DNA from: Eubacteriales bacterium
GTDB lineage: Bacteria > Bacillota > Clostridia > Oscillospirales > CAG-272
Assembly: GCA_045644325.1 (NCBI GenBank)
Contig: JAZRGT010000031.1
Location: 3,952 to 67,951 of the forward strand
Length of the DNA: 64,000 bases
Reading direction: 5' to 3'
The notes under the pieces are model-generated. The model ran no database searches. It had not been told where the DNA came from and saw nothing but the letters and a program-made list of their open reading frames with translations. This document shows positions 20,577 to 37,063 of this stretch, in pieces; within the stretch, counting starts at the first letter, position 1; every line of letters begins with the position of its first letter. Made by a program: the position numbers and the translations under genes.

Positions 20577-20700
20577 CGCCACGGCAAAAACCTCAAAAAT
20601 ATGCTTAAGAGATATTTCAAATAAGCCCTAAAACCTTGTAAAATAAAGCTTTTTGCGCTAAAAACACAAGAAGAGCGATCTTTCGATCGCTCTTCTTTCT
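20577..20700 (+). repeat. Copy B of the rubrerythrin 3' end plus terminator module; serves as a bidirectional terminator
   Basis: It reads ARHGKNLKNMLKRYFK* in frame, compared with [16 protein letters not shown] at the end of rbr. The shared spacer follows, then the stem AAGAAGAGCGATC/GATCGCTCTTCTT. Confidence 0.8.
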
Positions 20701-22364
20701 CATTGAGATGCTCTTTCACGGTATAATGTTTTGCCGAGATACTCTATATATCTGTACAAATCACGGTCTATTCGGCGGTTGTATTTTCCGAGTGCCTGCA
20801 CGACCTCAAAGGTTTCATAATCGTATTCAATCGTAACGTATGGGACGTTTTTCTCTTTTCTCAAAAACACGATGATAGAGTAATGGGATATAACATTACG
20901 GAAGTACCTATTGGTATAAACGCAATTATGCTGCAACGCACCTTCATGCTTAAAGTCGGAAATCGTTTTTGGAACTATAATAAAATATCCGTTTTCCTCT
21001 CTGTTGATCCACGATAATTCCTGCTCCGCACGAGCATATTGGTTGATCTCGTTTACCGAAACGCGCAAAGCCTTTTCCTGCACCATAACATCGTGTCTTT
21101 CAATATAGTCTTTATCAAACAGATCATCAACAGTTACGGCAGGAGTTTGGGCGAGCAAATCAATATAGTCACCGTACAAATTTGCATTGAAAATACCCGG
21201 CCTTCTCAAAAAATTAATCAGCTTTGTGTCTAAAACAGAAGCGTCAAGGTTGAAGTGGTTGAAAATTTGCACCAAAGAGGTGTATATACTATCACCGGTC
21301 CTCCTTTTCTTCATTACCGATTCCAGCTTTTGAAGAATATCAATATCGTGAAGTCCGCAACGTTTGATGATAGGAAGCGTATTGATAACGTTATTTTTAC
21401 TTGCAAAATCAATTTGCTTCGACGTAAATTCTTCCAGATATTCGACGATATTTTCAATATGCACCGTCGATGAAAACAGTTTGTGCTTAAACACAATTTC
21501 CGCTTTATTGCTATATAACGCCGCCAACATCAGTTTTACGTACTGAAGACAGTTTACTTCGGTTGCCTCAATATAATCATTCAGATATTTACAATCACAA
21601 TTTCTGACTATTTTATTAAGGTTGACATAAGCCGCCGCATCAGAAGCCTGCCATTTCGAACGTACCGTGGAGTATCTTGCACTCGCGCCCGCACACGAAA
21701 TGTGCTTTGAAAATTTATAAAGTCTGCCTTCTATACACACAATACGAATAATTTCGGTTGTATCGCTATTAGTAACAACAACGTTGCCTACTCTTCCCTC
21801 CTCATAAACGTCGTTTCTCGAGAAAACCCTGAATACATAGGCGTTTGAGTACTTGGACAGAAAGCCTTCAGAATACCTGCTCATTGCTGTTCTTGAATAG
21901 TATGGTATTCTGATATATTTCATTTTGTGCTCAAAGGCATCATAATGTGCTTTTATACTGTTATCGCAGTCAGCAAAAATTTCTTGGAGCAATTCCTGGT
22001 CCTTGTTTTTAACCAAGCTAAAACTTAAGGGAGCAGGTTCCAATTGGACACTGGCTGAATCAACTCTTACTCCGACCGGTGATTTTGATTCAATTTCCTT
22101 GCGGACTGCCTCTGTTCTTTTATACGGCAACAGCAGCTCTTCTTTTTTTTGCATTTTCTCGTTTTCGATCTGCGCGAGTTCCCGATCAATCTTATCTTGA
22201 AGATCTGCATCTTCATATTTCAAAAAGCCCTTTTCAAACGCGTCAAGCGGCAATTTCGCAACTCTGTTTCCATAATCAACATAAAAGTACTTATCGTCAA
22301 CAGAAACGATTATTCCCGTTTGCCTTAATTTGTTAACAACTTTTTTTCCAATGATAATATTCAT
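20700..22364 (-). CDS. PcfJ-like domain protein
   Basis: The start is placed at the ATG at 22364 (MNIIIGKK). The C-terminus HEGALQHNCVYTNRYFRNVISHYSIIVFLRKEKNVPYVTIEYDYETFEVVQALGKYN fits the PcfJ-like pattern known from conjugative elements. Confidence 0.6.
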   Translation of the reverse strand: MNIIIGKKVVNKLRQTGIIVSVDDKYFYVDYGNRVAKLPLDAFEKGFLKYEDADLQDKIDRELAQIENEKMQKKEELLLPYKRTEAVRKEIESKSPVGVRVDSASVQLEPAPLSFSLVKNKDQELLQEIFADCDNSIKAHYDAFEHKMKYIRIPYYSRTAMSRYSEGFLSKYSNAYVFRVFSRNDVYEEGRVGNVVVTNSDTTEIIRIVCIEGRLYKFSKHISCAGASARYSTVRSKWQASDAAAYVNLNKIVRNCDCKYLNDYIEATEVNCLQYVKLMLAALYSNKAEIVFKHKLFSSTVHIENIVEYLEEFTSKQIDFASKNNVINTLPIIKRCGLHDIDILQKLESVMKKRRTGDSIYTSLVQIFNHFNLDASVLDTKLINFLRRPGIFNANLYGDYIDLLAQTPAVTVDDLFDKDYIERHDVMVQEKALRVSVNEINQYARAEQELSWINREENGYFIIVPKTISDFKHEGALQHNCVYTNRYFRNVISHYSIIVFLRKEKNVPYVTIEYDYETFEVVQALGKYNRRIDRDLYRYIEYLGKTLYRERASQ

Positions 22365-22475
22365 TGTTCGCCCTCTATACAAGATGAATCAAATTTACGT
22401 ATTCCCACACGCCGCATTTATACTGAAAATTGCGTCTTCGGATCCACTGTGCCGATCTTCGGCTTGATTTAATTT

Positions 22476-23123: not shown

Positions 23124-23181
23124 TATAAAAACGCTCTAACTAAGAAGATTTGAAGCGATGACAAAGAAAGGAGATACTATA

Positions 23182-24174
23182 ATGAAACGGCTTACGTTCA
23201 AGATACTCTACTATATAGCCGCAAGTTTGTTAATCATCTCTGCTTTTTGTCAGCTTGTTTGGCGTTTAAATTCTTGGCATCTGAGTTTGTCTGATCATGA
23301 ACACGATTATAATTTCACAAACAGTGACCTACACAACCATTGGCAACAATGCGAATGCGGGGAGATACAAAATCAAACTAAGCACAGCTTTATACGGGAT
23401 AAAAATACCAAATATCATTGGGAATTTTGCAATTGCGGGCGCATCAATGGATATGAAATCCATAGCTTCGCATCGTGGAGCATCATAACTGAAGCCTCAG
23501 AAACCTCATCGGGTCTTAAAGAAAGTTTTTGCGATATCTGCGATTTTTACACTATCAATACCATCCCTAAAATTCCGCATGAACATAATTATTCCGAAGA
23601 ATGGAATTGGGATGAACTCAATCATTGGCAAGAATGCGTTTGCGGAGAAAAGAGTGCATTTTTATCTCATAAGTATGGTGAATGGGTAGTAACCCAAGAG
23701 GCTACGATTCACGCAACCGGAATACAAGAGAATATTTGCGAAACTTGCCGATTCGTTATAATCAAACCCCTTCCTCACACACATTCCTTTGACTCAATCT
23801 GGGAAAAAGATGCAAGCAAGCATTGGCACCTGTGCTATTGCGGAGAAAAAAGCGATGTCGCTTCTCACTCATACGGAAGCTGGAAAACAACACGAGCCGC
23901 TACCATAAACGCTACCGGAGAACAGAAGCGTTCTTGTAATGATTGTAAGTTCACCGAAACCAAAACCATTCCGAAAATACCGCACACTCACTCCTACACC
24001 AACACATGGTTTAATGACGAAAATGAGCATTGGAATCAGTGTTCTTCTTGTCACGATAGGATCAACATCTCAGCTCACACACTTAAAGAAACTACGTCAA
24101 CGGATGCATCGAAAAAACGAAAAATATGCACAGTGTGCAGTTATTGGCAAACAGAGAAGGCCTCCGGCAATTGA
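23182..24174 (+). CDS. Membrane-anchored Cys/His-rich tandem-repeat protein
   Basis: The start is placed at the ATG at 23182 behind AAAGGAGA. An N-terminal TM helix is followed by four roughly 70-aa repeats of the pattern H.H.Y..W..D...HW..C.CGE......H.YG.W.......AT..G.....C..C.F......PKIPH. Confidence 0.65.
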   Translation: MKRLTFKILYYIAASLLIISAFCQLVWRLNSWHLSLSDHEHDYNFTNSDLHNHWQQCECGEIQNQTKHSFIRDKNTKYHWEFCNCGRINGYEIHSFASWSIITEASETSSGLKESFCDICDFYTINTIPKIPHEHNYSEEWNWDELNHWQECVCGEKSAFLSHKYGEWVVTQEATIHATGIQENICETCRFVIIKPLPHTHSFDSIWEKDASKHWHLCYCGEKSDVASHSYGSWKTTRAATINATGEQKRSCNDCKFTETKTIPKIPHTHSYTNTWFNDENEHWNQCSSCHDRINISAHTLKETTSTDASKKRKICTVCSYWQTEKASGN

Positions 24175-24213: not shown

Positions 24214-24266
24214 AAAAAAAGCCAAAGCACTTTGCCTCGGTTCGAGGCAGAGTGCTTTGGCTTATT
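24214..24266. terminator. Bidirectional terminator between convergent genes
   Basis: A long stem GCCAAAGCACTTTGCCTCG/CGAGGCAGAGTGCTTTGGC is flanked by an A-run and a T-rich run. Confidence 0.7.
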
Positions 24267-25056: not shown

Positions 25057-25449
25057 TTAGATTGCAGTATACTCTAAAATCAAAGATCTGAGATCATTCG
25101 CGATCGCAATAAGCGTGCCATTGGTTATAGGATATTCAAAGGTCCAGCTTTCCTGCAAAAATTTCTTCTCTTCAACCAGCAATTCTCTTGCCTTCGCTTC
25201 AAAAACTCTTGCCTTGCGCTTGTCGCGCGAGGGAAGCATTTGAGATACGAGCTCAGCACATTCCTCTAAAATCTCCGCGCATTGGTGACAGGTAGGGGCG
25301 AGACAATTATATTCACCAGCATCTCCACCCGCGAATTTAGACAAAAACCATTTTTCGAGATCCATCAACTTATACTGTACGGCATATACGTCTTCAGCAA
25401 GCCGCTCCTTGTTAATAATATCGCAGTTTTTGGGGCTAAACAGCATCAT
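25057..25449 (-). CDS. Hypothetical 130-aa protein (last gene of the operon)
   Basis: AGGAGA ribosome-binding site. It lies 19 nt after the RuvB-like gene. No motif recognised. Confidence 0.6.
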   Translation of the reverse strand: MMLFSPKNCDIINKERLAEDVYAVQYKLMDLEKWFLSKFAGGDAGEYNCLAPTCHQCAEILEECAELVSQMLPSRDKRKARVFEAKARELLVEEKKFLQESWTFEYPITNGTLIAIANDLRSLILEYTAI

Positions 25450-25468: not shown

Positions 25469-27148
25469 TTAGGTAGTTGGGGTGTGCTCACTGCCTTCAA
25501 CTTGAGCTGTGGTAACTTCGATCGGATCGGTGCTGTCCTCGTTGCCGGTAGAAGGCAACTGACCTACCGTTACGCCCTCCCCGAAATCGTAATATCCATA
25601 TTTCAAGTAATCATCCGCCTTGGGGGTAAGATATCTTCCGCGAGATGTAACGCTTATAAAGCCGATCTTCATCAAGAAGGGTTCATATTCTTTAGTAAGG
25701 AGCTTGGAATCGAGATATACGCGAGCAGCAAGCGTTTCTTCGGAGAGGAAGCCCTTTGCCTCGTCTGCAATCGCTCGAAGTATTCTTCTGTCCGTATCCT
25801 TGAGTCCGATTTTGTCTATACCTCTGTCTTCAAAATACCGTTCTGCCATTTCAAGGGTGACAGTATCGGTATCAAGTGTGACTGCTTTGGTCTTCAGCCC
25901 CTTAACTACTGCTTCAAGCTCTCTGATGGAGCTGCGGCAACGGTTGATGCACGCATCTACGACAGCTTCCTCTGCATTAAGCTCCATCGCACCGAGCTTT
26001 TTTTTGAAAATGCGACGAAGCTCATCGCGAGTATAATCCTGAAGGACGAACGTAAGGTATCCGCAACGGTCCTTGAGAGTTGAGATGATCGCATCATAGT
26101 CGGTCGTAGCACCGATAAAGGTAAAGTCGGGAATCGGCACGCTCTTAGTACCACTTTCTGTCAAATAGCTGAATACACGGTCATTAAGAACGGTAAGTAA
26201 ACTCGACTGAAGCTTTACGGGTAGTGCGTGTATCTCATCAAGTGCGATCACCACGGGGCGATTGGCTTTGGAGATATTTATGAAAAAGTCCTGAAATAGC
26301 CGCTGGGATCTAACGTCGTTCATAAGCGAGGTACAATCAATGAACTCAAAGTCTACACCAAGCTCCTTGGCAACGAGCTTCATAATGGTACTCTTACCAA
26401 GTCCTCTGTTGCCCAAGAGCAGAATATGATCAAGGTGCTTTTTGCCAAGCTTTTTGGCTGCCGCAATATCCTCCTTGAGTTTGCTGATAACGTGCGACTG
26501 TCCGATGAATTCATCAAGACAGCGAGGTGCCAAGGGGTTGCCTTCATAATAAATTATATCCGACCCCGATCCTTCTTGTGCGTAAGGAACCAAGGGCGTA
26601 GTATCCTCGGCGTTGGCGGGCACAAAATCCGCGGAAGCACCGTCAGCACCCTCATATGGTGCTTCATCCGTGTCCCACTCGCCCTGTTTTAAAGTCGGTG
26701 TTTCCTTTTTGGGAGGAGGGGGTGCCAATCTCTTTCCCTTTTGGGAAGGATTTTCATCCACATCCAAAATCGGTTTGATCGGAGTCTCTCTATCCGTAAC
26801 AGGTACTTCAGGATATGCCTTGATATTGCCCTTACCTCTGCTAATATCAGCAAAGGAAGGTGTCACCTTGGAATCCAGAAGTCCGAAAAATGCCATAACC
26901 GTGCTATTATAAAAACCGTATCTTTTTAAAATATCGATAACGTTATCAATACTTTCATAAATATTCCGGCATTTTGCTCTTTCCATATAAGAAGGAGCCT
27001 TGGTATAAAGCTCCTTACAATGATCCGAAATGCCACGAAGCATTTCAGCCGCTTTCTCTGCTTTGGCAGGGGAAGCCTCTTTCGCAAGATTTCTAGCTCC
27101 TACAAAAAGAACTCTGATCTGACTTAATGTTTTCATTTGGTTCTCCAT
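25469..27148 (-). CDS. RuvB-like AAA+ ATPase with a roughly 220-aa non-RuvB N-terminal extension
   Basis: It is colinear with all three RuvB domains. Matching blocks: LDEFIGQSHV, Walker A GNRGLGKST, Walker B VIALDEIH, FTFIGATT, LKDRCGY, and the C-terminal winged helix (GLKDTDRRILRAI...EPFLMKIGFISVTSRGRYLT). Confidence 0.75.
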   Translation of the reverse strand: MENQMKTLSQIRVLFVGARNLAKEASPAKAEKAAEMLRGISDHCKELYTKAPSYMERAKCRNIYESIDNVIDILKRYGFYNSTVMAFFGLLDSKVTPSFADISRGKGNIKAYPEVPVTDRETPIKPILDVDENPSQKGKRLAPPPPKKETPTLKQGEWDTDEAPYEGADGASADFVPANAEDTTPLVPYAQEGSGSDIIYYEGNPLAPRCLDEFIGQSHVISKLKEDIAAAKKLGKKHLDHILLLGNRGLGKSTIMKLVAKELGVDFEFIDCTSLMNDVRSQRLFQDFFINISKANRPVVIALDEIHALPVKLQSSLLTVLNDRVFSYLTESGTKSVPIPDFTFIGATTDYDAIISTLKDRCGYLTFVLQDYTRDELRRIFKKKLGAMELNAEEAVVDACINRCRSSIRELEAVVKGLKTKAVTLDTDTVTLEMAERYFEDRGIDKIGLKDTDRRILRAIADEAKGFLSEETLAARVYLDSKLLTKEYEPFLMKIGFISVTSRGRYLTPKADDYLKYGYYDFGEGVTVGQLPSTGNEDSTDPIEVTTAQVEGSEHTPTT

Positions 27149-27177: not shown

Positions 27178-28173
27178 TTAAACCATACTTTCCAGTCCCC
27201 ACTTGGAGAGAAGCTTTCGAATATTCTCTGCCGTGGTAGCATTGGAAAGTCCCGTGGCTTTAATGTGTGCTGTGCCGATCACTTGTCCGACGGTAGAGGA
27301 TTTATGGATGCCGATACATTCTCCATCTCTGTTAAAAACAGGAGCTCCACTATCGCCGTTATTTGAGGGAGCTGTATACACGAGGTCGTCATCGTCACTC
27401 GAATGTGCAAATTTTACGTTTCCGGACACCGGCGCCAAACCAAAGTTAAGCCCATTACCTATAAGCATCATTGCGATTCCGGGACGAACCTGGCAATAAT
27501 CTTTAATAAGCGGTACAAATGGTGTTCTGCCATTAAAGTTCTTTATCTTCAAAAGAGCTAAATCGAATTTTTTGTCGGCTTTAACAAACTCCGCTTCACA
27601 TTCGATTGTTCCATCACCGTTTTTCACCGATATGCAGGTTGCTCGTTTGGAGCCCTCGTGGATAACGTGATGGTTTGTAAGGAAGTACCCGTCGGAAGTG
27701 ATGAAAAAGCCACTTCCAACACTCGAATGTGCTCGTACAACCAATGTCGCCGGAGAGCATTTTTCAAATACATCCGCCACCCAATCGACATCTTCGCCGG
27801 GAGATGGAGGTTTTACGTGAATAGGTGATTTAAGTGTGAGGGAAAGGCGCTCCCCTGATGCATCAATAGGCTTGATTGCTTTCTTATCGTCTGCAATCGG
27901 TGAGGTCAACGAAACTTTAGTTGCGCCTTTTAATATTGCCTTCTTAACTTCGGCAGTAATTCCGTATTTGGTTATAATTGCCGCGAACGTATCGTACCTG
28001 TCCGCCTCGGCAAAAAGCAATGCTTTGTCGGAATAAGACTCTATCTGCCATCGGATTTCTCGCAAGGACTTTGCATACAGTATAGCATACGATCTGGCGT
28101 TAGAGGCATCGCCTACATCAAGGTGTTTTCTGAACTGATTGCGGTAATATTCAAGTTGTTCGGAATAAAGCAT
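27178..28173 (-). CDS. Trypsin-fold (S1/HtrA-like) serine protease with an N-terminal helical domain and no PDZ domain
   Basis: The catalytic triad contexts are TNHHVI, FDLALLKI and NNGDSGAPVF. Confidence 0.75.
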   Translation of the reverse strand: MLYSEQLEYYRNQFRKHLDVGDASNARSYAILYAKSLREIRWQIESYSDKALLFAEADRYDTFAAIITKYGITAEVKKAILKGATKVSLTSPIADDKKAIKPIDASGERLSLTLKSPIHVKPPSPGEDVDWVADVFEKCSPATLVVRAHSSVGSGFFITSDGYFLTNHHVIHEGSKRATCISVKNGDGTIECEAEFVKADKKFDLALLKIKNFNGRTPFVPLIKDYCQVRPGIAMMLIGNGLNFGLAPVSGNVKFAHSSDDDDLVYTAPSNNGDSGAPVFNRDGECIGIHKSSTVGQVIGTAHIKATGLSNATTAENIRKLLSKWGLESMV

Positions 28174-28191: not shown

Positions 28192-29541
28192 TTAATCGCC
28201 AAGCGCCTCGCGAAGCTTAGCCGGCAGAAAAGAAAGATCGTACTTGGCTCCGAATTTCTCCTTGAACGTCCTCGTTTCCATAGCGTCCCTCAGCATTCTT
28301 GCTTCAAAACCTTCGACCTGAATGTTGTTATAAAGATCAAGAATGATTTGATTGAGTTTGTAATCAAAGTACTTCTCGTCAAGTGACATATTGAGCCTAT
28401 AAGCATCGAATGCCATAAGATCTTCGTCCGAGGTGGAATTGATATATCTTGCCAAAATAGTTTCAAAATCAGCTCGAGTGATCTTGTCGTCATGGGGAGA
28501 ACCGCTTCCGAGAGCAATGATCTCGCGCTTCATAGGAAGGCTAGCCGCCTGACGGCAAATCGATTTTATATCAGCGCCTGAATATCCGGCAAAACGATCA
28601 GCGAGCCACTCGGTTGTTACGTCAGAAGCGCAAGGGATATCAACGCGACCCTTGACCTTGGGATCCTTGCCGAGAGCAATTCTGACAAGCTGCTCTCTTG
28701 CCGGAGCATCGGGCATAGGAACGTAGATCTGTGTGTCAAATCTGCCTCCGCGAAGAACTGCACTATCCAATGCCCAGGGGCGATTGGTTGCCGCTATTAC
28801 GATTCTGACCTGTCCGGGTTTTGCTTTTGCGGTAAATCCATCCATATAAGTAAGCAGCGTCGTAAGCTGCTCCCGGGTGTGCGTTGATTCGTCACCCTCA
28901 CGGGAAGCCGCGATAGCATCTATTTCATCGAAGAAGATGATGCACTTTTCCAGCTTATTCGCCTGTTCGAATATCTCTGCAATTATCTTTGCACCGTCAC
29001 CGACAAGATTCGCCATTACGTCCTTGATCTGGACAACGGCAATTTTACAGCCCAGAGCACCTGCAAGACATTTTACTGCATGTGTCTTACCCGTACCGGG
29101 AGGTCCGTAAAGTAAAACCTGAATACCTCTGTCGTTTCCGCGATATTTGCGGTAGATAGGTGCGTATTTAGGATCCATAGGGGCAAAAATATTGACTACG
29201 AACTGGTCTCGAAGATCTTTGAGACCGGCGATATCGCAGAGAGTCAGCTCAGGTATCGGAGCTGCAAACCAATCTGTTGTCTTAATTTTCTCTTCGCTTG
29301 CCCCCGAAGCCCTCGCGGGCTTCGGGATGGTGGGATTTGCAAGGAAGGCGCCGATCTCATTAACTACGGTACGGTAGTAACTACGGTGCGATTCTATGAG
29401 GTTGCTCTTCTTAAGTTCATCCTCTGCATCGCGAACTGCAAGCTTGCCCATCTCTATCGCGCGAGGGATATTGTTATCCTTGCGCGCCTCGTTGTATTCT
29501 TTTACGTAGTTTTCAACCCTTGAAATCGGTATCTGATTCAA
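28192..29541 (-). CDS. Classical-clade AAA+ ATPase, Vps4/katanin-like, with an N-terminal helical (MIT-like?) domain
   Basis: A TTG start follows AAGGGAGA. Motifs: Walker A LLYGPPGTGKTH, Walker B IIFFDEIDA, and SRH ATNRPWALDSAVLRGGRFD. There is a single ATPase cassette, with no TM or protease domain. Confidence 0.75.
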   Translation of the reverse strand: MNQIPISRVENYVKEYNEARKDNNIPRAIEMGKLAVRDAEDELKKSNLIESHRSYYRTVVNEIGAFLANPTIPKPARASGASEEKIKTTDWFAAPIPELTLCDIAGLKDLRDQFVVNIFAPMDPKYAPIYRKYRGNDRGIQVLLYGPPGTGKTHAVKCLAGALGCKIAVVQIKDVMANLVGDGAKIIAEIFEQANKLEKCIIFFDEIDAIAASREGDESTHTREQLTTLLTYMDGFTAKAKPGQVRIVIAATNRPWALDSAVLRGGRFDTQIYVPMPDAPAREQLVRIALGKDPKVKGRVDIPCASDVTTEWLADRFAGYSGADIKSICRQAASLPMKREIIALGSGSPHDDKITRADFETILARYINSTSDEDLMAFDAYRLNMSLDEKYFDYKLNQIILDLYNNIQVEGFEARMLRDAMETRTFKEKFGAKYDLSFLPAKLREALGD

Positions 29542-29543
29542 CG

Positions 29544-30191
29544 TTATTCTCCCTTTCTTTCTTCGTCAAGCATTGCCGCGATAGCATCAATGCGAGCTTC
29601 ATCGGAAGCGCTTACGCTTTCTTCGGGCTTGGCAGCCGGCTGAGTAGTTGTAATCCCGGAAACGAGGCGAGCCTCTAGGGATTTCTTGATATTGTCCACA
29701 CGCTGAGTACGCTTGGGATCTTTGTTTTCCTTCTTGCCGTAGATCTTTTCATACGCGGACATATGTGAACTCGACATCTCGGAGCGAAGAGATTTTACAC
29801 TCTTACGTGCATTGGCGAGAGCTTCACGAAGACTCTTGTATTCCTTGCCGAGCTTGGTAAAGTCGGGAGCCTTTGCGAATACTGCTTTGCAAGCCTTGAG
29901 AGCTTTGGGCAACTTACCGAGTCTTGCCATTACCTTCGCCGTAATAGCACAGGTCTTGATTTCAAGCTCAACTGCGGCGAGCTCTTCACCGAATTCCTGA
30001 AAATCGGCGATCATATCAACAAGCTCGTTGACATAGTCATTGTTATCCATCTTTGCAGCCTCATAAGCTGCATCCGAAAGCTGATTTACGAGGTTTTCGA
30101 TATCCTTGCGCTGTTCTCCAATCTCAACGATTGTTTCTGCGATAAGAACTTCCTGGTGGAACTCCTTATCCTTGATAGTTTTTTTAGTCAT
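29544..30191 (-). CDS. All-helical 215-aa protein, possible ESCRT-III/Snf7-like subunit
   Basis: The ORF is confident (AGGAGG ribosome-binding site). ITAKVMARLGKLPKALKACKAVFAKAPDFTKLGKEYKSLREAL resembles the alpha2-alpha3 region of ESCRT-III proteins. The tail is acidic and amphipathic (EARIDAIAAMLDEERKGE). The fold call is inference. Confidence 0.45.
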   Translation of the reverse strand: MTKKTIKDKEFHQEVLIAETIVEIGEQRKDIENLVNQLSDAAYEAAKMDNNDYVNELVDMIADFQEFGEELAAVELEIKTCAITAKVMARLGKLPKALKACKAVFAKAPDFTKLGKEYKSLREALANARKSVKSLRSEMSSSHMSAYEKIYGKKENKDPKRTQRVDNIKKSLEARLVSGITTTQPAAKPEESVSASDEARIDAIAAMLDEERKGE

Positions 30192-30235
30192 AACTGTATT
30201 CCTCCTGAAATATGATTTCTGTATTATTTTTAGTA

Positions 30236-30955
30236 TTAGTTGCCGTACTTTTTCTGAAGCTGAGCCAATCTGTCGCTAACCTCCCGTGCTGCGGAAGTAT
30301 CGGACTCACTTGCGGAAACAGGAGCTGTATATTCTTCTCCATATTTCTTCTGAAGCTCAGCCAATCTGTCTGAAACCGCATGCGAAGCGGCGCTTCCCGA
30401 ATAATTAGCTTTCATAATAGCGGCACGCTCCTTGATCTTTCTCTTAGCTGCCTCAAGCTCTTTCTCGTCCTTGATGCTGCGCGCCATCTTATTTTCAATT
30501 TTGTTGATGATAGCGAGAACCATATCTACCACCCTGCCGATATCGCTTTCGTTATTGACCATAGCAGGAAGCTTCTTTTCGGGAACGACCTTAATAACGT
30601 ATGAATACCACTCATAGTCGATAAGAGATGCAATATACATTTCGAGGTCAAGAAGGATCTCACGCACTCTGAGAAAATCATCGGTCTTATCATTATTATG
30701 ACTGATCTGTGTTTCCAGTCTAGAGATCGCATCGTTAATACGAACAAGCTCTCTTTCGCTTGCCGAGGATCTGCTTTTTGCTAACAGCTCGCGTTCTCTC
30801 TGCTCAAGCATATTCTCAAGTTCCACCGCATTGCGGTCAAACTTTGAGATCTTTTCATCCAGATGAGTTACAACTGCAGTGACGATTTCAGCCTCTTCGG
30901 CGGCTCTTTTTTCGATCGACTTTTTTCTATTGCTAAAAATCGTATCAATTATCAT
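30236..30955 (-). CDS. Coiled-coil 239-aa protein with a duplicated C-terminal VSDRLA(E/Q)LQKKYG motif, possibly ESCRT-III/PspA-like
   Basis: The ORF is confident (AAGGAG ribosome-binding site). The N-terminus is IFSNRKK followed by long heptad helices. Two C-terminal copies of SDRLAxLQKKYG resemble MIM1-type MIT-interacting motifs. This is inference. Confidence 0.45.
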   Translation of the reverse strand: MIIDTIFSNRKKSIEKRAAEEAEIVTAVVTHLDEKISKFDRNAVELENMLEQRERELLAKSRSSASERELVRINDAISRLETQISHNNDKTDDFLRVREILLDLEMYIASLIDYEWYSYVIKVVPEKKLPAMVNNESDIGRVVDMVLAIINKIENKMARSIKDEKELEAAKRKIKERAAIMKANYSGSAASHAVSDRLAELQKKYGEEYTAPVSASESDTSAAREVSDRLAQLQKKYGN

Positions 30956-30972: not shown

Positions 30973-31512
30973 TTATTTTTGAGTGTGTTTGTTGATTGTG
31001 ACTCTGTAAATATTCACGCTTTTAAGCATTAGCATATTTAACTTCAACAGAGCCGCAACCTCGGGATCGTTCTTGAGAGATGACTCAAGAATGTTGGGGA
31101 ACTCCTCCGCTGAAACGCGATTTGCAATTTCACGGATGTGGACAAGAAGCTTATCTCTCAAGTACATCGAGTACCCCTCAAAGGTGTTATTAATAAGCTC
31201 CCTCTCATATAAATATGAGATATCACCTTCTTTTACAAACGGCAATCCTTTTCCATCCAAGGAAGATGCATCAACGTTTCTTCTTGAAACAATAACGCTG
31301 CCGTTTGCGGAATACCCTCTTCCGTCATCACCGAATCCCCAAGGGATTTCGATATCTCCAATACGGAGACACCAATAAAGATTGTCGGATTCATAGAAGC
31401 AATAGTCGGGGAAGACGTTTTGCTTCTTTGCCTCCACAAAAGGCTTGGTGCTGTACGCCGCAATAAATCTCTTGCCGTTAATAACGGATACTCGCTTTGT
31501 TTTCCAAAACAT
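30973..31512 (-). CDS. Hypothetical 179-aa protein
   Basis: The start is placed at the ATG at 31512 behind GAGGGTG; the track ORF extends to a TTG at 31653. No motif recognised. Confidence 0.55.
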   Translation of the reverse strand: MFWKTKRVSVINGKRFIAAYSTKPFVEAKKQNVFPDYCFYESDNLYWCLRIGDIEIPWGFGDDGRGYSANGSVIVSRRNVDASSLDGKGLPFVKEGDISYLYERELINNTFEGYSMYLRDKLLVHIREIANRVSAEEFPNILESSLKNDPEVAALLKLNMLMLKSVNIYRVTINKHTQK

Positions 31513-31539
31513 TTTTTCACCCTCGAACGTTGTGACAAT

Positions 31540-31568
31540 ATTATAACACATTCTATCTTTACACTCAA
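31540..31568 (-). promoter_or_regulatory. Possible internal promoter in the only sizeable gap of the operon
   Basis: The minus strand reads TTGAGT-17 nt-TGtTATAAT. Confidence 0.35.
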
Positions 31569-31663
31569 GCAAATATATCCCGTTTTTCGGGAAATAGAAC
31601 TGCACTTCCAAATTTTTGCCCAAAATTTGAAAGTGCAGAGATAATATATACAATATGGTTAGT

Positions 31664-33169
31664 CTATTCTGAAAGCAAGCTGTCTAAAAAATTCCGACAT
31701 TTTTCACAAATATTCGGACCGTCAAGAAAATTTTCAACAATTCTAAAATAACGCATATGTTTTTCTTTAAGCTCATCGTACATCTTTTGTAAATGGATCG
31801 AATCAGAGTTCAGAACAGGATCGCGCGCTGCCGCAGTTCTTCCTACATCCGTATTCCAAGCCGCCTTCACTGCAGCACCAAGTGCAACAACGTTTTCCGA
31901 AGCGAGCTTCACGTACTTTTTGTCTTTGTTGGCATCCTTTATTCGCAAAGCTCCATCATCTGTCTCCTTATCAACCCAAAGCACATTTGGAATGGGGATT
32001 ATAAAATCCTGACAAATATGCCTTATGACCGTTTCTCTCAACGCCTTTATCCTTGCAGTTCCGCCGGTAAAAATAATGTGAGAAACCTTCTTATTATTCA
32101 ATCGGTCTTTATTCAGGTTGATATAATAATTTATATGCTCAGCGCACTGAATAAAGCAGTTTTCGATATTTATTGAGCGATCATCTTCGCTCGTGTAGAT
32201 TCCAACATAAATCGTATCGCCTTTTATTGAGCTGCCGATCTGATTCTTTTGCAAGACGAATTTCTTGATTTTTGTTTTACCGTCTTTGGTCAGCGTAGAT
32301 TCCACGCGCATAGTTTGAGGCGTCGTGTCATTTTCATTGCCTTGGAAAAAGTCTGTCTTGCTCTTTTCCACAGAATAATCAAACAACGGAGTATCTCGCT
32401 TCTCACCATTTACATTCAATATCGTGCTGTTTTTATATATCTGAATGCAAAGCTCCTCGGTTATCTGCTTGCCCATCTTGATATCCATTCTTCCATTTTC
32501 AATACTTGCTGGAGCTGTGATAGGGCAAATACTGATAGAATCGTCTTCGGGGCACTTGTTGGCTTGGATGACGGTCATATCAAGCGTATATCCGCCAAAA
32601 TCTGCAACGAGGATCAGATCGCCGTCTTTGATTTTATTTTTGTATTCGTTTACTTTTTGATGTGCCTCATTATAAGCAATTACCGCAAGAACAGGCTCGG
32701 GAGCGTATATAATTTCTATTTTTTGAGATGTTCCGAAAACACTTTGGCAAGTATTAAAAATAATATCTCTGAGGTTTTCGCAATATTTACTCTGGTTGGT
32801 TGGAGAAGTATACGTGGGATGACCGAAACATACCCTCTTCAATGTAGAAAAATTGTATTCGATACTGTCTTTCCTACATTTTTTTATGATTTTGAACAAC
32901 ACTTTCATATATTCTTCAACGTAATCTATGCGAATTCCTTGACCGATATCCTCCTTCAAAGAATCAATGATTGCTATATCAGCACTCGTATTAAAAGCAT
33001 ATTGAAAATATCCCGTTTTATCTTCGGTCATTGCGGTTGCAAAATATTTGTCGTTAAGTAATTTATCGTAAAAAATTATCGGTTCTTTATCTTTATCCTC
33101 GTATCCCACCACGCTGACCGAGCTGCTTCCGAAATCTATACCCAGATATTTGATATTTATATTGGACAT
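31664..33169 (-). CDS. Hsp70/actin-fold (ASKHA) ATPase, Hsp70-like nucleotide-binding domain only
   Basis: Phosphate-1 YLGIDFGSSSVSVVGY, phosphate-2 LVADFGGYTLDMTVI, and the adenosine motif IIFTGGTARIKALRE. There is no Hsp70 substrate-binding domain. Confidence 0.7.
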   Translation of the reverse strand: MSNINIKYLGIDFGSSSVSVVGYEDKDKEPIIFYDKLLNDKYFATAMTEDKTGYFQYAFNTSADIAIIDSLKEDIGQGIRIDYVEEYMKVLFKIIKKCRKDSIEYNFSTLKRVCFGHPTYTSPTNQSKYCENLRDIIFNTCQSVFGTSQKIEIIYAPEPVLAVIAYNEAHQKVNEYKNKIKDGDLILVADFGGYTLDMTVIQANKCPEDDSISICPITAPASIENGRMDIKMGKQITEELCIQIYKNSTILNVNGEKRDTPLFDYSVEKSKTDFFQGNENDTTPQTMRVESTLTKDGKTKIKKFVLQKNQIGSSIKGDTIYVGIYTSEDDRSINIENCFIQCAEHINYYINLNKDRLNNKKVSHIIFTGGTARIKALRETVIRHICQDFIIPIPNVLWVDKETDDGALRIKDANKDKKYVKLASENVVALGAAVKAAWNTDVGRTAAARDPVLNSDSIHLQKMYDELKEKHMRYFRIVENFLDGPNICEKCRNFLDSLLSE

Positions 33170-33184
33170 AATAATTGCTCCTTA

Positions 33185-33832
33185 TTAGTAGCTTTGACCG
33201 CGGGCGTCAGCCAGCACCTTAATAACGTTTTCTATCTGTTCTGTCAGAAATTCGACCGAGTTTGATCCTCTAGTTCTGATCAGAGAATTGATCGCATTAC
33301 ATACGCCGTCTCTCAGCTTCTCTTCGAGATCTGATATTTCCGCATAATACGCTTCCTTCTGCTCAATAAGGTCTTCCAGTTCCTTGATTTTTTCACTCTC
33401 AACACCGTCAGATTTAGCAGAGGGTGCTGCCTTCTCCACTTCAAGGTCATTAATACGAGCAATAAGCTTTGCGTTATTCTTAATCTCTTCCTTAAGCTTC
33501 AACTCAAGCTCTTCGATCATTGCGCAATTTTCAAAGACCGGCACGACATTTTCATTGAGCATGAGCTTTATCTCTTGTAGCTCTTTGATCAAAATTTTCA
33601 TTACCTTGTTGTTCTGATGCAATACTTCATCATGCATGCAGGTAGGATCGCGTGGCTCATCTTTTTCTTTTGCATCTCCGCTTTTGAGTGCAGGCTCTTT
33701 ATCATCAGTATCAACAGCTACGTTTCTTTTGGACTTGAGTGCAAAAATTACAAGAACCGCCGTAACCGTTATCGAAAGCAATAGCACATATCCCAACATA
33801 CATGCTGCAAGTATCTGCAAAATATTTTCCAT
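33185..33832 (-). CDS. N-terminally membrane-anchored coiled-coil protein
   Basis: The TM helix ILAACMLGYVLLLSITVTAVLVIFAL is followed by heptad-rich charged helices. Confidence 0.6.
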   Translation of the reverse strand: MENILQILAACMLGYVLLLSITVTAVLVIFALKSKRNVAVDTDDKEPALKSGDAKEKDEPRDPTCMHDEVLHQNNKVMKILIKELQEIKLMLNENVVPVFENCAMIEELELKLKEEIKNNAKLIARINDLEVEKAAPSAKSDGVESEKIKELEDLIEQKEAYYAEISDLEEKLRDGVCNAINSLIRTRGSNSVEFLTEQIENVIKVLADARGQSY

Positions 33833-35815: not shown

Positions 35816-37063
35816 TTATTCAAATGCTATGATATAATCAGCAATCTCGGGATTTATAGAGCGACAATCCCAAACAAGCTCTTCCGGTACCCTAAAAGTT
35901 ATATTATCAGGAAGAGAGCTTATATCCTCAACGACTATTTTGGTTGGATAGGGACTGCGAAGCACAATAGCGGTTACCGTGCTTTCTTCAATACTGCCTT
36001 TAATATGTATTTCGGGCGCATACACCTCGACGATCCGTACTGCAGAACCGTCAAAAGCTCCTGCTTCAATGGAAGCGATCGACTCGGGTAATACAACGGT
36101 TTTGATCGCGGTTGCGTCGCGGAAGGCTCCCGGACCAACCGCTGTTACCTTTATCTTTGTTTTTACGGTGGGATCAATTTTGTATATATGCTTCAAAATC
36201 AAGGAGTTGATATCGTTGATGGGTTTGATTATATCCACTCTACCCTTAAGCACGTCATCCTGAATAAAGATCAGAATATCACTTGTCATCTTTGCATCGT
36301 TGGTTAAAGTATCATTGACTGTGTATATTTCCTTCTCACCCAAAGGCAGTAGGTCCTTTGCTGTCAAAAACACACCGTTGAAAGTTGCGCTTCTTTCGCC
36401 CTGAGTATCCGTGATCTCGTATGTAGCAAAGCGTGAGTATAAATCGCGGTCGCACCATGTGTCGGCACACTCTACGGCATTCATATTGGGAGTTAATGCA
36501 AACGGTATAAATAAGATGACCCAAACAAAGCAAACAGCCAACATTCCCGTTTGCTTTGCTATACTCAAGTTACTACTTTTGGTACTGGTAGGGAGATTAA
36601 GCACGTATAAAACAAACAACAATAGCGAAGTAAATGTGTGGCAAGGAAGTAAAGCAACAACGATAATACCAAAGTACAAAGCAAGTTCGCACAGAATAAT
36701 AATATACATCGTTCGGAAATGCATTATTCTGAAAATTGTCAGGATCAAGCAGATGCATACGGTGAACGATATCAAAACAACCAAAGCGATAAGTGACAAG
36801 CTTAAGGTACGATCGACAGCAAAACCGCTATACAAGGCGTGTGATAACAAAATCAGTATTGAAAATGCTATACAAATAAACCATCTGGAACACAAAATGG
36901 CACCGGAAACTTTGCACCTGTTGATTTCTTTTGTTAATTTGGCGTTTTTTCTACGCTCTCTCTCCAATACTCGATTATATTGGATTTGTTGTCCAGCAGC
37001 CTCTTTGCTGACTATTACACTTGGAGATTCGTACTGCTTCAGATCAAGCAAATAATTACTCAT
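35816..37063 (-). CDS. Polytopic membrane protein (5-6 TM) with a C-terminal BspA-type leucine-rich-repeat region
   Basis: The start is placed at the ATG at 37063, 8 nt after GGAGG, and overlaps the upstream stop (ATGAGTAA). Hydrophobic segments run from ILCSRWFICIAFSILILL onward. The C-terminus carries VGPGAFRDATAIKTVVLPESIASIEAGAFDGS. Confidence 0.65.
   Translation of the reverse strand: MSNYLLDLKQYESPSVIVSKEAAGQQIQYNRVLERERRKNAKLTKEINRCKVSGAILCSRWFICIAFSILILLSHALYSGFAVDRTLSLSLIALVVLISFTVCICLILTIFRIMHFRTMYIIILCELALYFGIIVVALLPCHTFTSLLLFVLYVLNLPTSTKSSNLSIAKQTGMLAVCFVWVILFIPFALTPNMNAVECADTWCDRDLYSRFATYEITDTQGERSATFNGVFLTAKDLLPLGEKEIYTVNDTLTNDAKMTSDILIFIQDDVLKGRVDIIKPINDINSLILKHIYKIDPTVKTKIKVTAVGPGAFRDATAIKTVVLPESIASIEAGAFDGSAVRIVEVYAPEIHIKGSIEESTVTAIVLRSPYPTKIVVEDISSLPDNITFRVPEELVWDCRSINPEIADYIIAFE

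What the first reader, a model, noticed from the sequence alone, without database searches (positions are those of the whole stretch)
28192..30955. Bacterial ESCRT-III-like pair next to a Vps4/katanin-type AAA+ ATPase, with MIM-like C-terminal motifs
Seen in the sequence:
- Two adjacent all-helical proteins of 215 and 239 aa precede a single-cassette classical AAA+ ATPase. Its SRH reads ATNRPWALDSAVLRGGRFD; the PW is typical of the Vps4/katanin/spastin clade.
- The ATPase has a roughly 70-aa helical N-terminal domain.
- The 239-aa protein starts with IFSNRKK, like the short basic N-terminus of ESCRT-III and PspA proteins. It ends with two copies of VSDRLA(E/Q)LQKKYG, encoded by a roughly 30-bp direct DNA repeat at about 30251-30280 and 30345-30375.
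- The 215-aa protein contains ITAKVMARLGKLPKALKACKAVFAKAPDFTKLGKEYKSLREAL, reminiscent of ESCRT-III alpha2-alpha3. It ends in an acidic amphipathic helix.

Established knowledge: ESCRT-III C-terminal MIM1 motifs, (D/E)xxLxxRLxxL(K/R), recruit the MIT domain of Vps4. Bacterial ESCRT-III relatives (PspA/Vipp1) are not normally paired with a Vps4-type ATPase.

Inference: this may be a filament-plus-disassemblase membrane-remodelling module, used here as an effector or scaffold. I cannot verify whether such bacterial pairs have already been catalogued.
Basis: partly seen in the sequence, partly recalled or inferred. Interest (0 to 1): 0.8.

Follow-up and report, generated by a model that had tools for sequence, protein, structure and literature searches.

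The report
Bacterial ESCRT-III-like proteins with MIT-domain ATPase
A mobile island in a gut Clostridia genome encodes two helical proteins (at least one predicted to fold like ESCRT-III) next to an AAA+ ATPase whose N-terminal domain is predicted to look like the MIT domain of Vps4. Reviews say bacteria lack this filament-plus-disassembly-motor pairing, so it is worth testing.

Summary

**Supported**
- The 215-aa protein (B) is modelled by AlphaFold2 with the six-helix ESCRT-III layout. Its best PDB fold matches are CHMP2A/CHMP3, then PspA, Vipp1, CHMP1B/IST1, Asgard ESCRT-III, CdvB and Snf7: 27 of the top 50. E-values are weak.
- The ATPase N-domain (residues 1-75, pLDDT 91) is a three-helix bundle. 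Its top four PDB matches are Vps4 MIT domains.
- B ends in a near-invariant amphipathic helix after a low-confidence (pLDDT <50) linker, as a MIM would.
- A (239 aa), B and the ATPase are adjacent in all 14 gene contexts examined. A trypsin-like protease and a RuvB-like ATPase usually follow, and these two share a second helical N-domain.

**Not supported or untested**
- No sequence profile links A or B to Snf7 or PspA.
- A's fold was not tested.
- The ATPase is not a Vps4-clade member. It has an FtsH/Cdc48-type RGGR second region of homology (SRH), a Leu pore loop and its own branch in a small tree.
- B's hairpin is acidic, so membrane binding is doubtful.
- The second VSDRLAxLQKKYG copy is a lineage-specific 96-nt duplication.

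I found no published description. Best reading: a mobile-element-borne, ESCRT-III/Vps4-like polymer-and-remodeller module. Its biological role is unknown.

The parts
30236..30955 (-). Protein A, 239 aa. All-helical by sequence reading. N-terminus hydrophobic then basic (MIIDTIFSNRKK); family hallmark IPEKKLP. Fold not tested.
   Evidence: ORF; family alignments; sits directly upstream of B in all 14 contexts; only generic coiled-coil hits by profile; hhalign to ESCRT-III prob 3%, E 0.015, colinear over 123 columns
30338..30376 (-). A tail motif, copy 1: VSDRLAELQKKYG (residues 194-206). This is the copy conserved in close homologues as R..EL.KKYG.
30242..30280 (-). A tail motif, copy 2: VSDRLAQLQKKYG (residues 226-238). 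It arose by a 96-nt tandem duplication found only here and in L011.
29544..30191 (-). Protein B, 215 aa. Predicted ESCRT-III-like fold with helices 6-47, 51-90, 94-106, 112-138, 161-180 and 195-212.
   Evidence: AF2 (pLDDT 67; 75-90 over residues 11-80, 70 and 62 over 81-100); Foldseek PDB (CHMP2A/CHMP3 prob 0.98/0.93; 27 of top 50 hits are ESCRT-III superfamily); Foldseek BFVD (Snf7 family protein at rank 2, prob 0.82); hhalign
29547..29603 (-). B C-terminal amphipathic helix DEARIDAIAAMLDEERKGE (residues 197-215). MIM-like, near-invariant across variants, preceded by a low-confidence linker.
   Evidence: alignments; AF2 helix 195-212 and pLDDT <50 for 181-190
28192..29541 (-). Single-cassette classical AAA+ ATPase, 449 aa, TTG start.
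   Evidence: Pfam AAA 8.5e-37 plus AAA_lid_3; NCBIfam; more than 120 homologue clusters at 51-100% identity in Clostridia
29317..29541 (-). ATPase N-domain (residues 1-75): MIT-like three-helix bundle.
   Evidence: AF2 pLDDT 90.7; Foldseek top hits VPS4A MIT 1yxr, VPS4B MIT 4u7y and Sulfolobus Vps4 MIT 2w2u, prob 1.00, TM 0.69-0.77; hhalign to MIT alignment prob 36%, E 3.8e-4, in register
28387..29259 (-). AAA cassette: Walker A GPPGTGKT (146-153), pore loop 1 MANLVGDG (176-183), Walker B IIFFDEID (201-208), SRH (251-269), C-terminal helix SDEDLMAFDAYRLNM (371-385).
28195..28386 (-). ATPase C-terminal extension, ending in the conserved motif KYDLSFL. Role unknown.
   Evidence: alignment; coordinates
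27178..28173 (-). Trypsin-like serine protease, 331 aa. His/Asp/Ser motifs are intact (TNHHV, DLALLK, GDSGAP). It has an ~85-aa helical N-domain of a second family.
   Evidence: Pfam Trypsin_2 1e-19; motifs; N-domain alignment A8; follows the ATPase in 12 of 14 contexts
25469..27148 (-). RuvB-like AAA+ ATPase, 559 aa, carrying the same second-family helical N-domain and a RuvB C-terminal winged helix.
   Evidence: Pfam RuvB_N 1.7e-22, RuvB_C 3.5e-14; NCBIfam RuvB 176 bits, below the 282 cut-off; N-domain
25057..25449 (-). Conserved ~130-aa protein of unknown function that closes the core module in nearly all variants.

Best explanation
**What it is.** A conserved module carried on mobile islands of gut Clostridia. 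Two helical proteins (A and B) form, or at least B forms, an ESCRT-III-like polymerising scaffold. A dedicated classical AAA+ ATPase docks on it through an MIT-like N-terminal domain and remodels or disassembles it using ATP.

**Shown (computed here)**
- The triad A-B-ATPase is invariably adjacent.
- B is predicted to have the ESCRT-III helix layout.
- The ATPase N-domain is predicted to be MIT-like.
- B has a near-invariant C-terminal amphipathic helix behind a flexible linker.
- The ATPase, protease and RuvB-like catalytic motifs are intact.

**Inferred**
- B (with A) polymerises.
- B's C-terminal helix binds the MIT-like domain, as MIM1 motifs bind Vps4.
- The hexameric ATPase then extracts subunits.
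- The trypsin-like protease and the RuvB-like ATPase carry a second, swappable helical N-domain. They are brought to the same scaffold, as eukaryotic ESCRT-III tails recruit MIT-domain enzymes such as calpain-7. Alternatively, the protease clips the autoinhibitory tail to trigger assembly.

**Likely role.** The island context suggests a conflict or defence role, or a role in the element's own biology, rather than housekeeping membrane repair. The context includes a DrmD-like SNF2 helicase, a PcfJ-like gene, and integrase or TraG neighbours in variants. This role is the weakest inference.
For: **Fold of B.** AF2 helices are 6-47, 51-90, 94-106, 112-138, 161-180 and 195-212. In Foldseek against the PDB, ranks 1-2 are CHMP2A and CHMP3 (prob 0.98 and 0.93). 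27 of the top 50 hits are PspA, Vipp1, CHMP1B/IST1, Asgard ESCRT-III, CdvB/CdvB2 or Snf7. In the viral library, where such folds are rare, a Snf7-family protein ranks 2 (prob 0.82). hhalign of B against a validated ESCRT-III alignment is colinear over 106 columns (E 0.0022; reference validated).

**MIT-like domain.** AF2 pLDDT is 90.7. Foldseek ranks 1-4 and 7 are Vps4 MIT domains (TM 0.69-0.77, rmsd 1.6-2.5 Å). 13 of the top 50 hits are MIT domains. hhalign to MIT gives prob 36% in register (reference validated).

**MIM-like tail.** The motif IDAIxAMLDEER is conserved from 100% down to 18-34% identical variants.

**Conserved triad.**. The protease is absent in L023 and L025 while A, B and the ATPase remain.

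**Second N-domain.** It is shared and swapped among the protease, the RuvB-like ATPase and a 568-aa protein.

**Island context.**
Against: - No sequence profile connects A or B to Snf7, PspA_IM30 or any solved ESCRT-III protein.
- hhalign probabilities are low: 12.8% for B and 3% for A.
- The B model has only moderate confidence (pLDDT 67; helices 3-4 about 50). Foldseek E-values are 0.36-4 with global rmsd of 28-50 Å, so the match is one of helix topology, not a rigid superposition.
- A's fold is untested, and A and B are not detectably related to each other.
- B's hairpin is acidic (helices 1+2 net -11) and helices 3-5 are basic (+11). This is the reverse of canonical ESCRT-III.
- ATPase pore loop 1 has Leu instead of the aromatic residue used by Vps4 to grip substrate.
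- The second N-domain family gives no MIT signal.
- No binding, polymerisation or phenotype has been shown.
Confidence: 0.6

Rival explanations
1. A regulated unfoldase/protease module without any ESCRT-III-like polymer. The AAA+ ATPase and the trypsin-like protease act together as an ATP-dependent proteolytic or activating pair, in the manner of the IetAS defence system. A and B would be coiled-coil adaptors, inhibitors or substrates, and the N-domains would be generic TPR-like adaptors.
For: PADLOC IetA models match the ATPase (1.5e-34, 118 bits). A protease follows the ATPase in 12 of 14 contexts. The N-domain profile also hits consensus TPR proteins and TPR repeat proteins in the representative library. 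A and B give only coiled-coil hits by sequence.
Against: The IetA match covers only the generic AAA cassette. As far as I know IetS is a subtilisin-like protease, not a trypsin-like one. The protease is missing in L023 and L025 while A, B and the ATPase persist. This reading does not explain why B's model matches ESCRT-III structures first, or why the N-domain matches Vps4 MIT domains ahead of TPR proteins.
Confidence: 0.2
2. The fold matches are artefacts. A and B are ordinary long helical-hairpin or coiled-coil proteins, and the N-domain is an ordinary three-helix bundle. The resemblance to ESCRT-III, MIT and MIM would be convergent or coincidental, with no mechanistic meaning.
For: All Foldseek E-values exceed 0.1. 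The alignments for A and B are shallow (9 and 14 sequences). There is no sequence-profile support. The charge polarity of B is reversed. The ATPase is not in the Vps4 clade.
Against: Three independent components of one known system (scaffold fold, MIT fold, C-terminal conserved helix) coincide in adjacent, always co-occurring genes. ESCRT-III superfamily entries are a tiny fraction of 350,542 PDB chains, yet they fill 27 of the top 50 ranks. Vps4 MIT domains take ranks 1-4 for a pLDDT-91 model. Even a validated ESCRT-III profile fails to list PspA or Vipp1 at E<1e-10, so sequence silence is expected in this superfamily.
Confidence: 0.15
3. A PspA/Vipp1-type housekeeping envelope-stress system. 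A and B would coat and stabilise damaged membrane, and the ATPase would recycle them.
For: PspA and Vipp1 structures are among B's fold matches (ranks 3, 5, 7, 8). The window-type operon encodes membrane proteins (33185-33832 and 35816-37078). Close homologues of A start with a hydrophobic M.(L/F)F.F(F/A)G motif.
Against: There is no PspA_IM30 profile hit, and no PspB/C, LiaI/F or Toastrack partners. The system is rare and patchy, sits on a low-GC mobile island, and was not found in most of 185,579 species genomes with the patterns used. B's hairpin is acidic. The hydrophobic N-terminus of A is absent in remote variants.
Confidence: 0.05

Closest known systems
Archaeal Cdv / ESCRT-III-Vps4 (CdvB-CdvC) and eukaryotic ESCRT-III-Vps4
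   Same: One or more ~210-240-aa helical-hairpin proteins with a C-terminal short motif after a flexible linker are encoded next to, or act with, a single-cassette classical AAA+ ATPase that has an N-terminal three-helix MIT domain. B's model matches CHMP2A/CHMP3/CdvB and the N-domain matches Vps4 and Sulfolobus Vps4 MIT. A C-terminal helix after the lid aligns with the Vps4 C-terminal helix.
   Different: There is no detectable sequence homology of A or B to Snf7. The ATPase lies outside the Vps4/katanin/spastin clade: RGGR-type SRH, no Vps4_C Pfam hit, no β-domain, Leu instead of Trp/Tyr in pore loop 1, and a 65-aa C-terminal extension. B's hairpin is acidic. The host is a bacterium and the locus is a mobile island. 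A protease and a RuvB-like ATPase are part of the module.
Eukaryotic ESCRT-III tail / MIT-domain interactome (Vps4, spastin, calpain-7, USP8/AMSH, ULK3, MITD1; PMC9477494)
   Same: The logic is that of several different enzymes, including a protease, each carrying a small helical N-terminal adaptor domain and encoded or acting with tail-bearing scaffold proteins.
   Different: Only the ATPase N-domain is shown to be MIT-like. The protease and RuvB-like N-domain is a second family with no MIT signal. No interaction has been tested.
Bacterial PspA / Vipp1 (IM30) / LiaH
   Same: These are the bacterial members of the ESCRT-III superfamily, recognisable mainly by structure. PspA and Vipp1 polymers are among B's fold matches.
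   Different: According to a 2025 review, PspA systems lack a Vps4-like ATPase (PMC7619361); PspF is a bEBP-type AAA+ regulator. There is no PspA_IM30 profile match here. The partners and genomic context differ.
Bacterial Vps4-like ATPases acquired from archaea, and PspA/Snf7 + AAA+ operons noted in PMC11237479
   Same: They are bacterial AAA+ ATPases genomically associated with membrane-remodelling-type proteins.
   Different: Those cases are either true Vps4 homologues in which Snf7 is replaced by a TPR-6TM protein, or sequence-recognisable PspA/Snf7 proteins with a two-cassette AAA+ ATPase and ABC transporters. Here neither the scaffold nor the ATPase is recognisable as Snf7 or Vps4 by sequence, and the partners are a protease and a RuvB-like ATPase.
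IetAS anti-phage system (AAA+ IetA + protease IetS)
   Same: An AAA+ ATPase is followed by a serine protease on a mobile or defence island. IetA models hit the ATPase.
   Different: The hit is confined to the generic AAA cassette. The protease class differs. IetAS has no A/B-type helical partners and no MIT-like N-domain, as far as I know.

Membership tests
ESCRT-III superfamily (Snf7/CHMP, CdvB, PspA/Vipp1) | Protomer fold: long α1-α2 hairpin followed by short α3, then α4 and α5 | tested here: met
   For B only. AF2 helices 6-47, 51-90, 94-106, 112-138 and 161-180. Foldseek ranks 1-2 are CHMP2A/CHMP3 (prob 0.98/0.93), and 27 of the top 50 hits belong to the superfamily. A Snf7-family protein ranks 2 in BFVD. 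Caveats: pLDDT 67, E-values 0.36-4.
ESCRT-III superfamily (Snf7/CHMP, CdvB, PspA/Vipp1) | Same fold for the second protein (A) | not tested
Sequence profiles give only coiled-coil or designed-helix hits. hhalign to ESCRT-III gives prob 3%, E 0.015.
ESCRT-III superfamily (Snf7/CHMP, CdvB, PspA/Vipp1) | Match to Pfam Snf7 (PF03357) or PspA_IM30 (PF04012), or to solved members by sequence profile | tested here: not met
   There is no hit at E≤10 for any of 33 family members, or for profiles A1, A2, A6 and A7 against PDB sequences.
ESCRT-III superfamily (Snf7/CHMP, CdvB, PspA/Vipp1) | Basic membrane-binding hairpin or N-terminal α0, and an acidic C-terminal half | tested here: not met
   In B, α1 is -5 and α2 is -6, while α3-α5 total +11. 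This polarity is consistent across the family. Short basic N-termini are present. A hydrophobic N-terminus occurs only in close homologues of A.
ESCRT-III superfamily (Snf7/CHMP, CdvB, PspA/Vipp1) | Self-assembly into filaments, rings or helical tubes | not testable with these tools
   Needs purification and EM.
MIM1-type Vps4-recruiting tail | Short conserved amphipathic helix at the extreme C-terminus after a flexible linker, consensus (D/E)xxLxxRLxxL(K/R) | tested here: inconclusive
   Position, linker and conservation fit: B residues 197-215 are near-invariant, with helix 195-212 and a low-confidence linker (pLDDT <50 at 181-190). The sequence DEARIDAIAAMLDEERK does not match the MIM1 consensus literally. 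A's RLAELQKK does resemble it, but it is not conserved beyond close homologues. Binding is untested.
Vps4/katanin/spastin ('meiotic') clade of classical AAA+ | N-terminal MIT three-helix bundle | tested here: met
   AF2 pLDDT 90.7. Foldseek ranks 1-4 are VPS4A, VPS4B and Sulfolobus Vps4 MIT, TM 0.69-0.77. Pfam MIT is not hit by sequence. hhalign gives prob 36%.
Vps4/katanin/spastin ('meiotic') clade of classical AAA+ | Clade-specific cassette features: RR(R)F/L-E SRH without the Pro-Gly insertion, aromatic pore loop 1 (K-W/Y-x-G), Vps4_C domain | tested here: not met
   The SRH LRGGRFD aligns without a gap to FtsH/p97/PAN LRPGRFD. There is no Pfam Vps4_C hit at E≤0.1. A C-terminal helix does align with that of Vps4 and p97-D2.
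Vps4/katanin/spastin ('meiotic') clade of classical AAA+ | Best profile or phylogenetic affinity to Vps4/CdvC | tested here: not met
   NCBIfam: CDC48 160.7, PAN 156, FtsH 154.4, CdvC 132.5 bits. phmmer bits: p97-D2 122, FtsH 121, katanin 113, Vps4 113. In the NJ tree the family has its own long branch outside both groups (small taxon set).
IetAS defence system | IetA-type AAA+ ATPase paired with an IetS (subtilisin-like) protease as a two-gene system | tested here: not met
   IetA models match residues 141-333 only. The protease is Trypsin_2/HtrA-like. The protease is dispensable in variants L023 and L025.

The most novel reading that the evidence does not exclude
Gut Clostridia carry, on mobile islands, a complete functional analogue of the ESCRT-III-Vps4 machine that sequence searches cannot see. 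It may be an ancient, highly diverged relative. A heteropolymer of two ESCRT-III-fold proteins would use its C-terminal tails as a small 'MIM code'. That code would recruit an MIT-domain AAA+ disassemblase and, through a second adaptor domain, a serine protease and a RuvB-like motor. This would be a prokaryotic counterpart of the eukaryotic ESCRT-III/MIT-enzyme network, used in conflicts between mobile elements and hosts.
Probability: 0.35. Interest if true: 0.9.

Novelty: new variant of a known kind. Interest (0 to 1): 0.75.

Why it matters
Current reviews state that a Vps4-like ATPase regulating ESCRT-III dynamics appears absent in bacteria (PMC7619361). The known bacterial exceptions are either horizontally acquired Vps4 genes that have lost Snf7, or PspA proteins with unrelated ATPases (PMC11237479).

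A bacterial module would change that picture if it pairs an ESCRT-III-fold protein carrying a conserved C-terminal tail with an MIT-domain AAA+ ATPase. It would show either deep ancestry or independent re-invention of the 'polymer plus MIT-docked disassemblase' design.

It would also give a small, genetically compact system for dissecting tail-MIT recruitment, including recruitment of a protease. And it would add a new kind of machinery to the cargo of mobile islands in the human gut microbiome.

The prediction can be tested directly with peptides, pull-downs and negative-stain EM.

Tried and rejected
- **Family libraries.** Pfam, NCBIfam and PADLOC scans of A and B gave only sub-threshold coiled-coil noise.
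- **Profiles against PDB sequences.** HMM profiles of A and B (close and diverse sets) found no ESCRT-III hit.
- **A versus B.** hhalign found no relation.
- **Pfam MIT on nine N-domains.** No hit.
- **ATPase N-domain profile against 1.84 billion representatives.** Only its own family (about a dozen 50% clusters) and multi-repeat TPR proteins appeared, with no bona fide MIT proteins.
- **Second N-domain family against MIT.** Nothing. Against the PDB it hit designed helical repeats, with Sulfolobus MIT 2w2u only at E=1.3.
- **Clade placement from the PDB sequence search.** Two-cassette p97-type chains filled the list. The AAA cassettes were not separately validated.
- **Collection scans.** Genome and metagenome scans returned few loci because the back-translated patterns were narrow or saturated.
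- **Mobile-element collections.** Viral contigs, phage records and plasmid records gave no relatives.
- **Other negatives.** The 501-aa neighbour had no PDB sequence hit. No tRNA gene or Rfam family at gathering threshold was found in the window.
- **Rejected idea.** I considered that the protease is the ATPase's obligate partner. The triad persists without the protease.

Full report
**1. What is in the sequence**

The finding covers three adjacent minus-strand genes:
- A: 30236-30955, 239 aa.
- B: 29544-30191, 215 aa.
- A single-cassette AAA+ ATPase: 28192-29541, 449 aa, TTG start. The homologues' N-termini agree with this start.

The DNA direct repeat is real: 30234-30294 versus 30330-30390, 72% identical over 61 nt, 96 nt apart.

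The genes lie in a tightly packed minus-strand operon running from about 42240 to 24265. It ends at a terminator-like hairpin with a 20-bp stem, found on both strands (24219-24263). The operon sits in a segment of lower G+C (0.38-0.45, against about 0.5 in most of the flanking sequence). That segment also holds a PcfJ-like gene and an SNF2 helicase resembling DrmD, DpdE and BrxH.

**2. The gene set is conserved and the triad is its constant core**

Close homologues of A and B are very rare. Of 5.8 billion proteins, 9 clusters match A and 15 match B. The ATPase has more than 120 homologue clusters at 51-100% identity, where named from Clostridia, Oscillospiraceae or Ruminococcaceae metagenome-assembled genomes.

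I looked at the gene neighbourhoods of diverse ATPase homologues. In all 14 contexts, the two genes upstream of the ATPase are recognisable, if distant (18-34% identity), relatives of A and B.
- A's hallmark is IPEKKLP, after two long helices.
- B's hallmarks are DPK..R...KK..EARLV and the C-terminal IDAIxAMLDEER(K).

Downstream there is usually a trypsin-like protease, a RuvB-like ATPase and a ~129-aa protein. The protease is missing in L023 and L025, and the RuvB-like gene in L025 and L027, while A, B and the ATPase stay. The rest of each operon varies: ASKHA-like ATPase, LRR_5 proteins, Zn-ribbon proteins, SNF2 helicase, a NusG paralogue.

Variants sit beside an integrase (L009/L010) or a TraG-type coupling protein (L023).

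The window is 95% identical in DNA to a contig of a 'Eubacteriales bacterium' MAG (L011).

No relative was found in IMG/VR viral contigs, INPHARED phages or PLSDB plasmids.

**3. Are A and B ESCRT-III-like?**

*By sequence: no.* Pfam Snf7 and PspA_IM30 are not hit at E≤10 by any of 33 family members. Profiles of A and B find only coiled-coil or designed helical proteins among PDB sequences. A and B are not detectably related to each other.

The comparisons give colinear but statistically weak alignments:
- B: 106 columns, E 0.0022, prob 12.8%.
- A: 123 columns, E 0.015, prob 3%.

*By predicted structure, B is ESCRT-III-like.* AlphaFold2 on the 14-sequence alignment gives helices 6-47, 51-90, 94-106, 112-138, 161-180 and 195-212. 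From my own knowledge, this is the α1-α6 layout of CHMP-type proteins. Mean pLDDT is 67, with 10-residue block means of 75-90 over residues 11-80 (70 and 62 over 81-100) and about 50 for α3-α4.

Foldseek against 350,542 PDB chains puts CHMP2A and CHMP3 (7zcg) first, with probabilities 0.98 and 0.93. PspA, CHMP1B/IST1, Vipp1, Synechocystis PspA, Asgard ESCRT-IIIB, Loki CHMP4-7, CdvB2, Snf7 and CdvB follow. In all, 27 of the top 50 hits belong to the superfamily.

In the viral structure library, where this fold is rare, a Megaviridae 'Snf7 family protein' ranks second (prob 0.82).

The caveats are real. E-values are 0.36-4 and global rmsd values are large, so what matches is helix topology, not a rigid body.

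It stays open.

From my own knowledge, the N-termini of close A homologues (MAFFTFFGENKQK, MNLLALFGINKQK) resemble the M..LFG..K start of many CHMPs. This motif is absent in remote variants.

**4. Is the ATPase N-domain MIT-like?**

Yes, by predicted structure. With 53 diverse sequences, residues 1-75 fold with pLDDT 90.7 into three helices: 5-21, 25-43 and 50-68. The best PDB matches are:
- VPS4A MIT (1yxr, prob 1.00, TM 0.75, rmsd 2.1 Å).
- VPS4B MIT bound to the IST1 MIM (4u7y).
- The Sulfolobus Vps4-like MIT bound to CdvB (2w2u, both chains).
- 2v6y, at rank 7.

SKD1, spartin, USP8 and NRBF2 MIT domains also appear. In all, 13 of the top 50 hits are MIT domains.

By sequence the domain is only 'TPR-like'. 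It hits consensus TPR proteins at E 2e-5 and TPR repeat proteins in the library of 1.84 billion representatives. Pfam MIT is silent.

A validated MIT alignment also hits the same consensus-TPR proteins. hhalign aligns the two domains in register over helices 1-2 (prob 36%, E 3.8e-4).

**5. MIM-like tails**

B's last 19 residues (DEARIDAIAAMLDEERKGE) are the most conserved part of the family. They form a predicted helix (195-212) after a linker of pLDDT below 50. That is exactly where ESCRT-III proteins carry their MIT-interacting motif. The sequence is amphipathic and acidic-then-basic, but it does not match the MIM1 consensus literally.

A's VSDRLAELQKKYG resembles the RLxxLKK core of MIM1 more closely. 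However:
- Only EL.KKYG is conserved among close homologues.
- The motif is lost in remote variants.
- The second copy comes from a 96-nt duplication seen only here and in L011.

Binding is untested.

**6. Is the ATPase a Vps4-type enzyme?**

In architecture, yes: an MIT-like domain, a linker and one classical cassette. In lineage, no.
- NCBIfam scores are CDC48 160.7, PAN 156, FtsH 154.4 and CdvC 132.5 bits.
- Pfam Vps4_C is not hit.
- Pore loop 1 is NLVG, a conserved Leu, where Vps4 has Trp.
- phmmer scores to all references are similar (90-122 bits).
- The family forms its own long branch in a small NJ tree.

Features shared with Vps4 and katanin are the 'PW' and a helix after the lid (SDEDLMAFDAYRLNM) that aligns with the Vps4 C-terminal helix. 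p97-D2 has that helix too. A 65-aa extension ending in KYDLSFL is specific to the family.

**7. The other two enzymes**

The protease has intact His, Asp and Ser motifs. The RuvB-like ATPase has intact Walker motifs. Each begins with an ~85-aa helical domain of a second family (alignment A8).

In L027 the same domain heads both the protease and a 568-aa protein of unknown type. It therefore behaves as a swappable adaptor.

In the window only these three enzymes carry an N-domain of either family, and only A and B carry the tail motifs.

This second domain gives no MIT signal. It is only weakly similar to the ATPase N-domain (prob 14.5%). Its fold is untested.

**8. Most likely mechanism and rivals**

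The best-supported reading (about 0.6) has four parts:
- B, probably with A, forms an ESCRT-III-like polymer.
- The ATPase docks on B's C-terminal helix through its MIT-like domain and remodels the polymer.
- The protease and the RuvB-like motor are brought to the same scaffold through the second adaptor domain, or the protease activates it by clipping the tail region.
- The module serves a conflict-related or element-related function.

The last part rests only on context.

Against a membrane role, B's hairpin is acidic and its α3-α5 region is basic, the reverse of canonical ESCRT-III.

The rivals are:
- An IetAS-like unfoldase-protease module with coiled-coil adaptors (about 0.2). It is weakened by variants that lack the protease.
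- Coincidental fold resemblance (about 0.15). It is weakened by three independent components of one known system coinciding in always-adjacent genes.
- A PspA-type stress system (about 0.05).

**9. Novelty**

Full-text searches found no description of this operon.
- A 2025 review states that a Vps4-like ATPase appears absent in bacteria (PMC7619361).
- A 2024 comparative-genomics paper reports only archaeal-derived Vps4 genes in bacteria paired with a TPR-6TM protein, and PspA/Snf7 with other AAA+ ATPases and transporters (PMC11237479).
- The 2024 survey of ESCRT diversity mentions bacteria only for PspA, Vipp1 and SPFH (PMC10936438).

I therefore class the locus as a new variant of a known kind. 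It works like ESCRT-III/Vps4 in architecture. However, its ATPase is not a member of the Vps4 clade, and its scaffold proteins are not members of the Snf7 or PspA sequence families.

Noticed in passing
window 27178-28173 and 25469-27148 (N-terminal ~85 aa of each); L027 11507-12619 and 12661-14367: The trypsin-like protease and the RuvB-like ATPase share a second helical N-domain family (helix-3 motif ERAK[CL], ending G..(4-5 aa)V..FFG). In L027 the same domain heads the protease and a 568-aa protein of unknown type, so it behaves as a swappable adaptor. Its fold and binding partner are unknown.
   Followed up: partly
window 25057-25449 (-): A ~130-aa helical protein with no family hit follows the module in nearly every variant (126-130 aa in L001, L007, L013, L014, L017, L018, L023 and L025; 124 aa in L027). 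It is probably a further core component.
   Followed up: no
window 31664-33169 (-) and 30973-31653 (-): A 501-aa protein has actin/Hsp70-type (ASKHA) phosphate and adenosine motifs by eye (LGIDFGSS, ADFGGYTLD, FTGGTARI) but no Pfam or PDB sequence hit. It is paired with a conserved ~177-aa protein whose true start is MFWKTKRVSV, inside the listed ORF. The pair recurs in L001, L012, L013 and L014.
   Followed up: partly
window 39469-42240 (-): The operon begins with a 923-aa SNF2-type helicase. Its N-lobe resembles the defence-associated helicases DrmD, DpdE and BrxH (E 1e-13 to 1e-18), all below family cut-offs.
   Followed up: partly
window 20700-42300; L010 4241-7662: The whole segment has low G+C and includes a PcfJ-like gene (20700-22382). 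The 95%-identical contig L011 differs by about 2 kb exactly there. A different variant of the system (L010) sits next to the same kind of aldo/keto-reductase-4Fe4S gene as in the window (42514-43629), together with an integrase. This suggests a recurrent insertion site.
   Followed up: partly
window 23158-24174 (+): A 338-aa protein with an N-terminal hydrophobic segment and several repeats of a His/Cys-rich unit (H.H.Y...W..D...HW..C.CGE). It has no family hit and converges on the operon end.
   Followed up: no
window 24219-24263: A perfect 20-bp-stem hairpin with T-runs on both strands. It is a bidirectional terminator-like site between the operon end and the convergent gene.
   Followed up: no
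window 28195-28386 (-), ATPase residues 386-449: A family-specific C-terminal extension of the ATPase, of variable length (up to ~150 aa in P0120) and ending in the conserved KYDLSFL motif. It has no counterpart in Vps4, FtsH or p97.
   Followed up: no
window 29922-30176 (-), B residues 6-90: B's predicted α1-α2 hairpin is strongly acidic (net -11) and α3-α5 is basic (+11). This is the opposite polarity to canonical ESCRT-III and is consistent across the family. It argues against hairpin-mediated binding to acidic membranes.
   Followed up: yes
L009 8105-8665: One common variant of the system (P0110, listed in 100 blocks of the collection's index) starts with a NusG paralogue directly upstream of A. 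This suggests operon-specific antitermination of the long operon.
   Followed up: no
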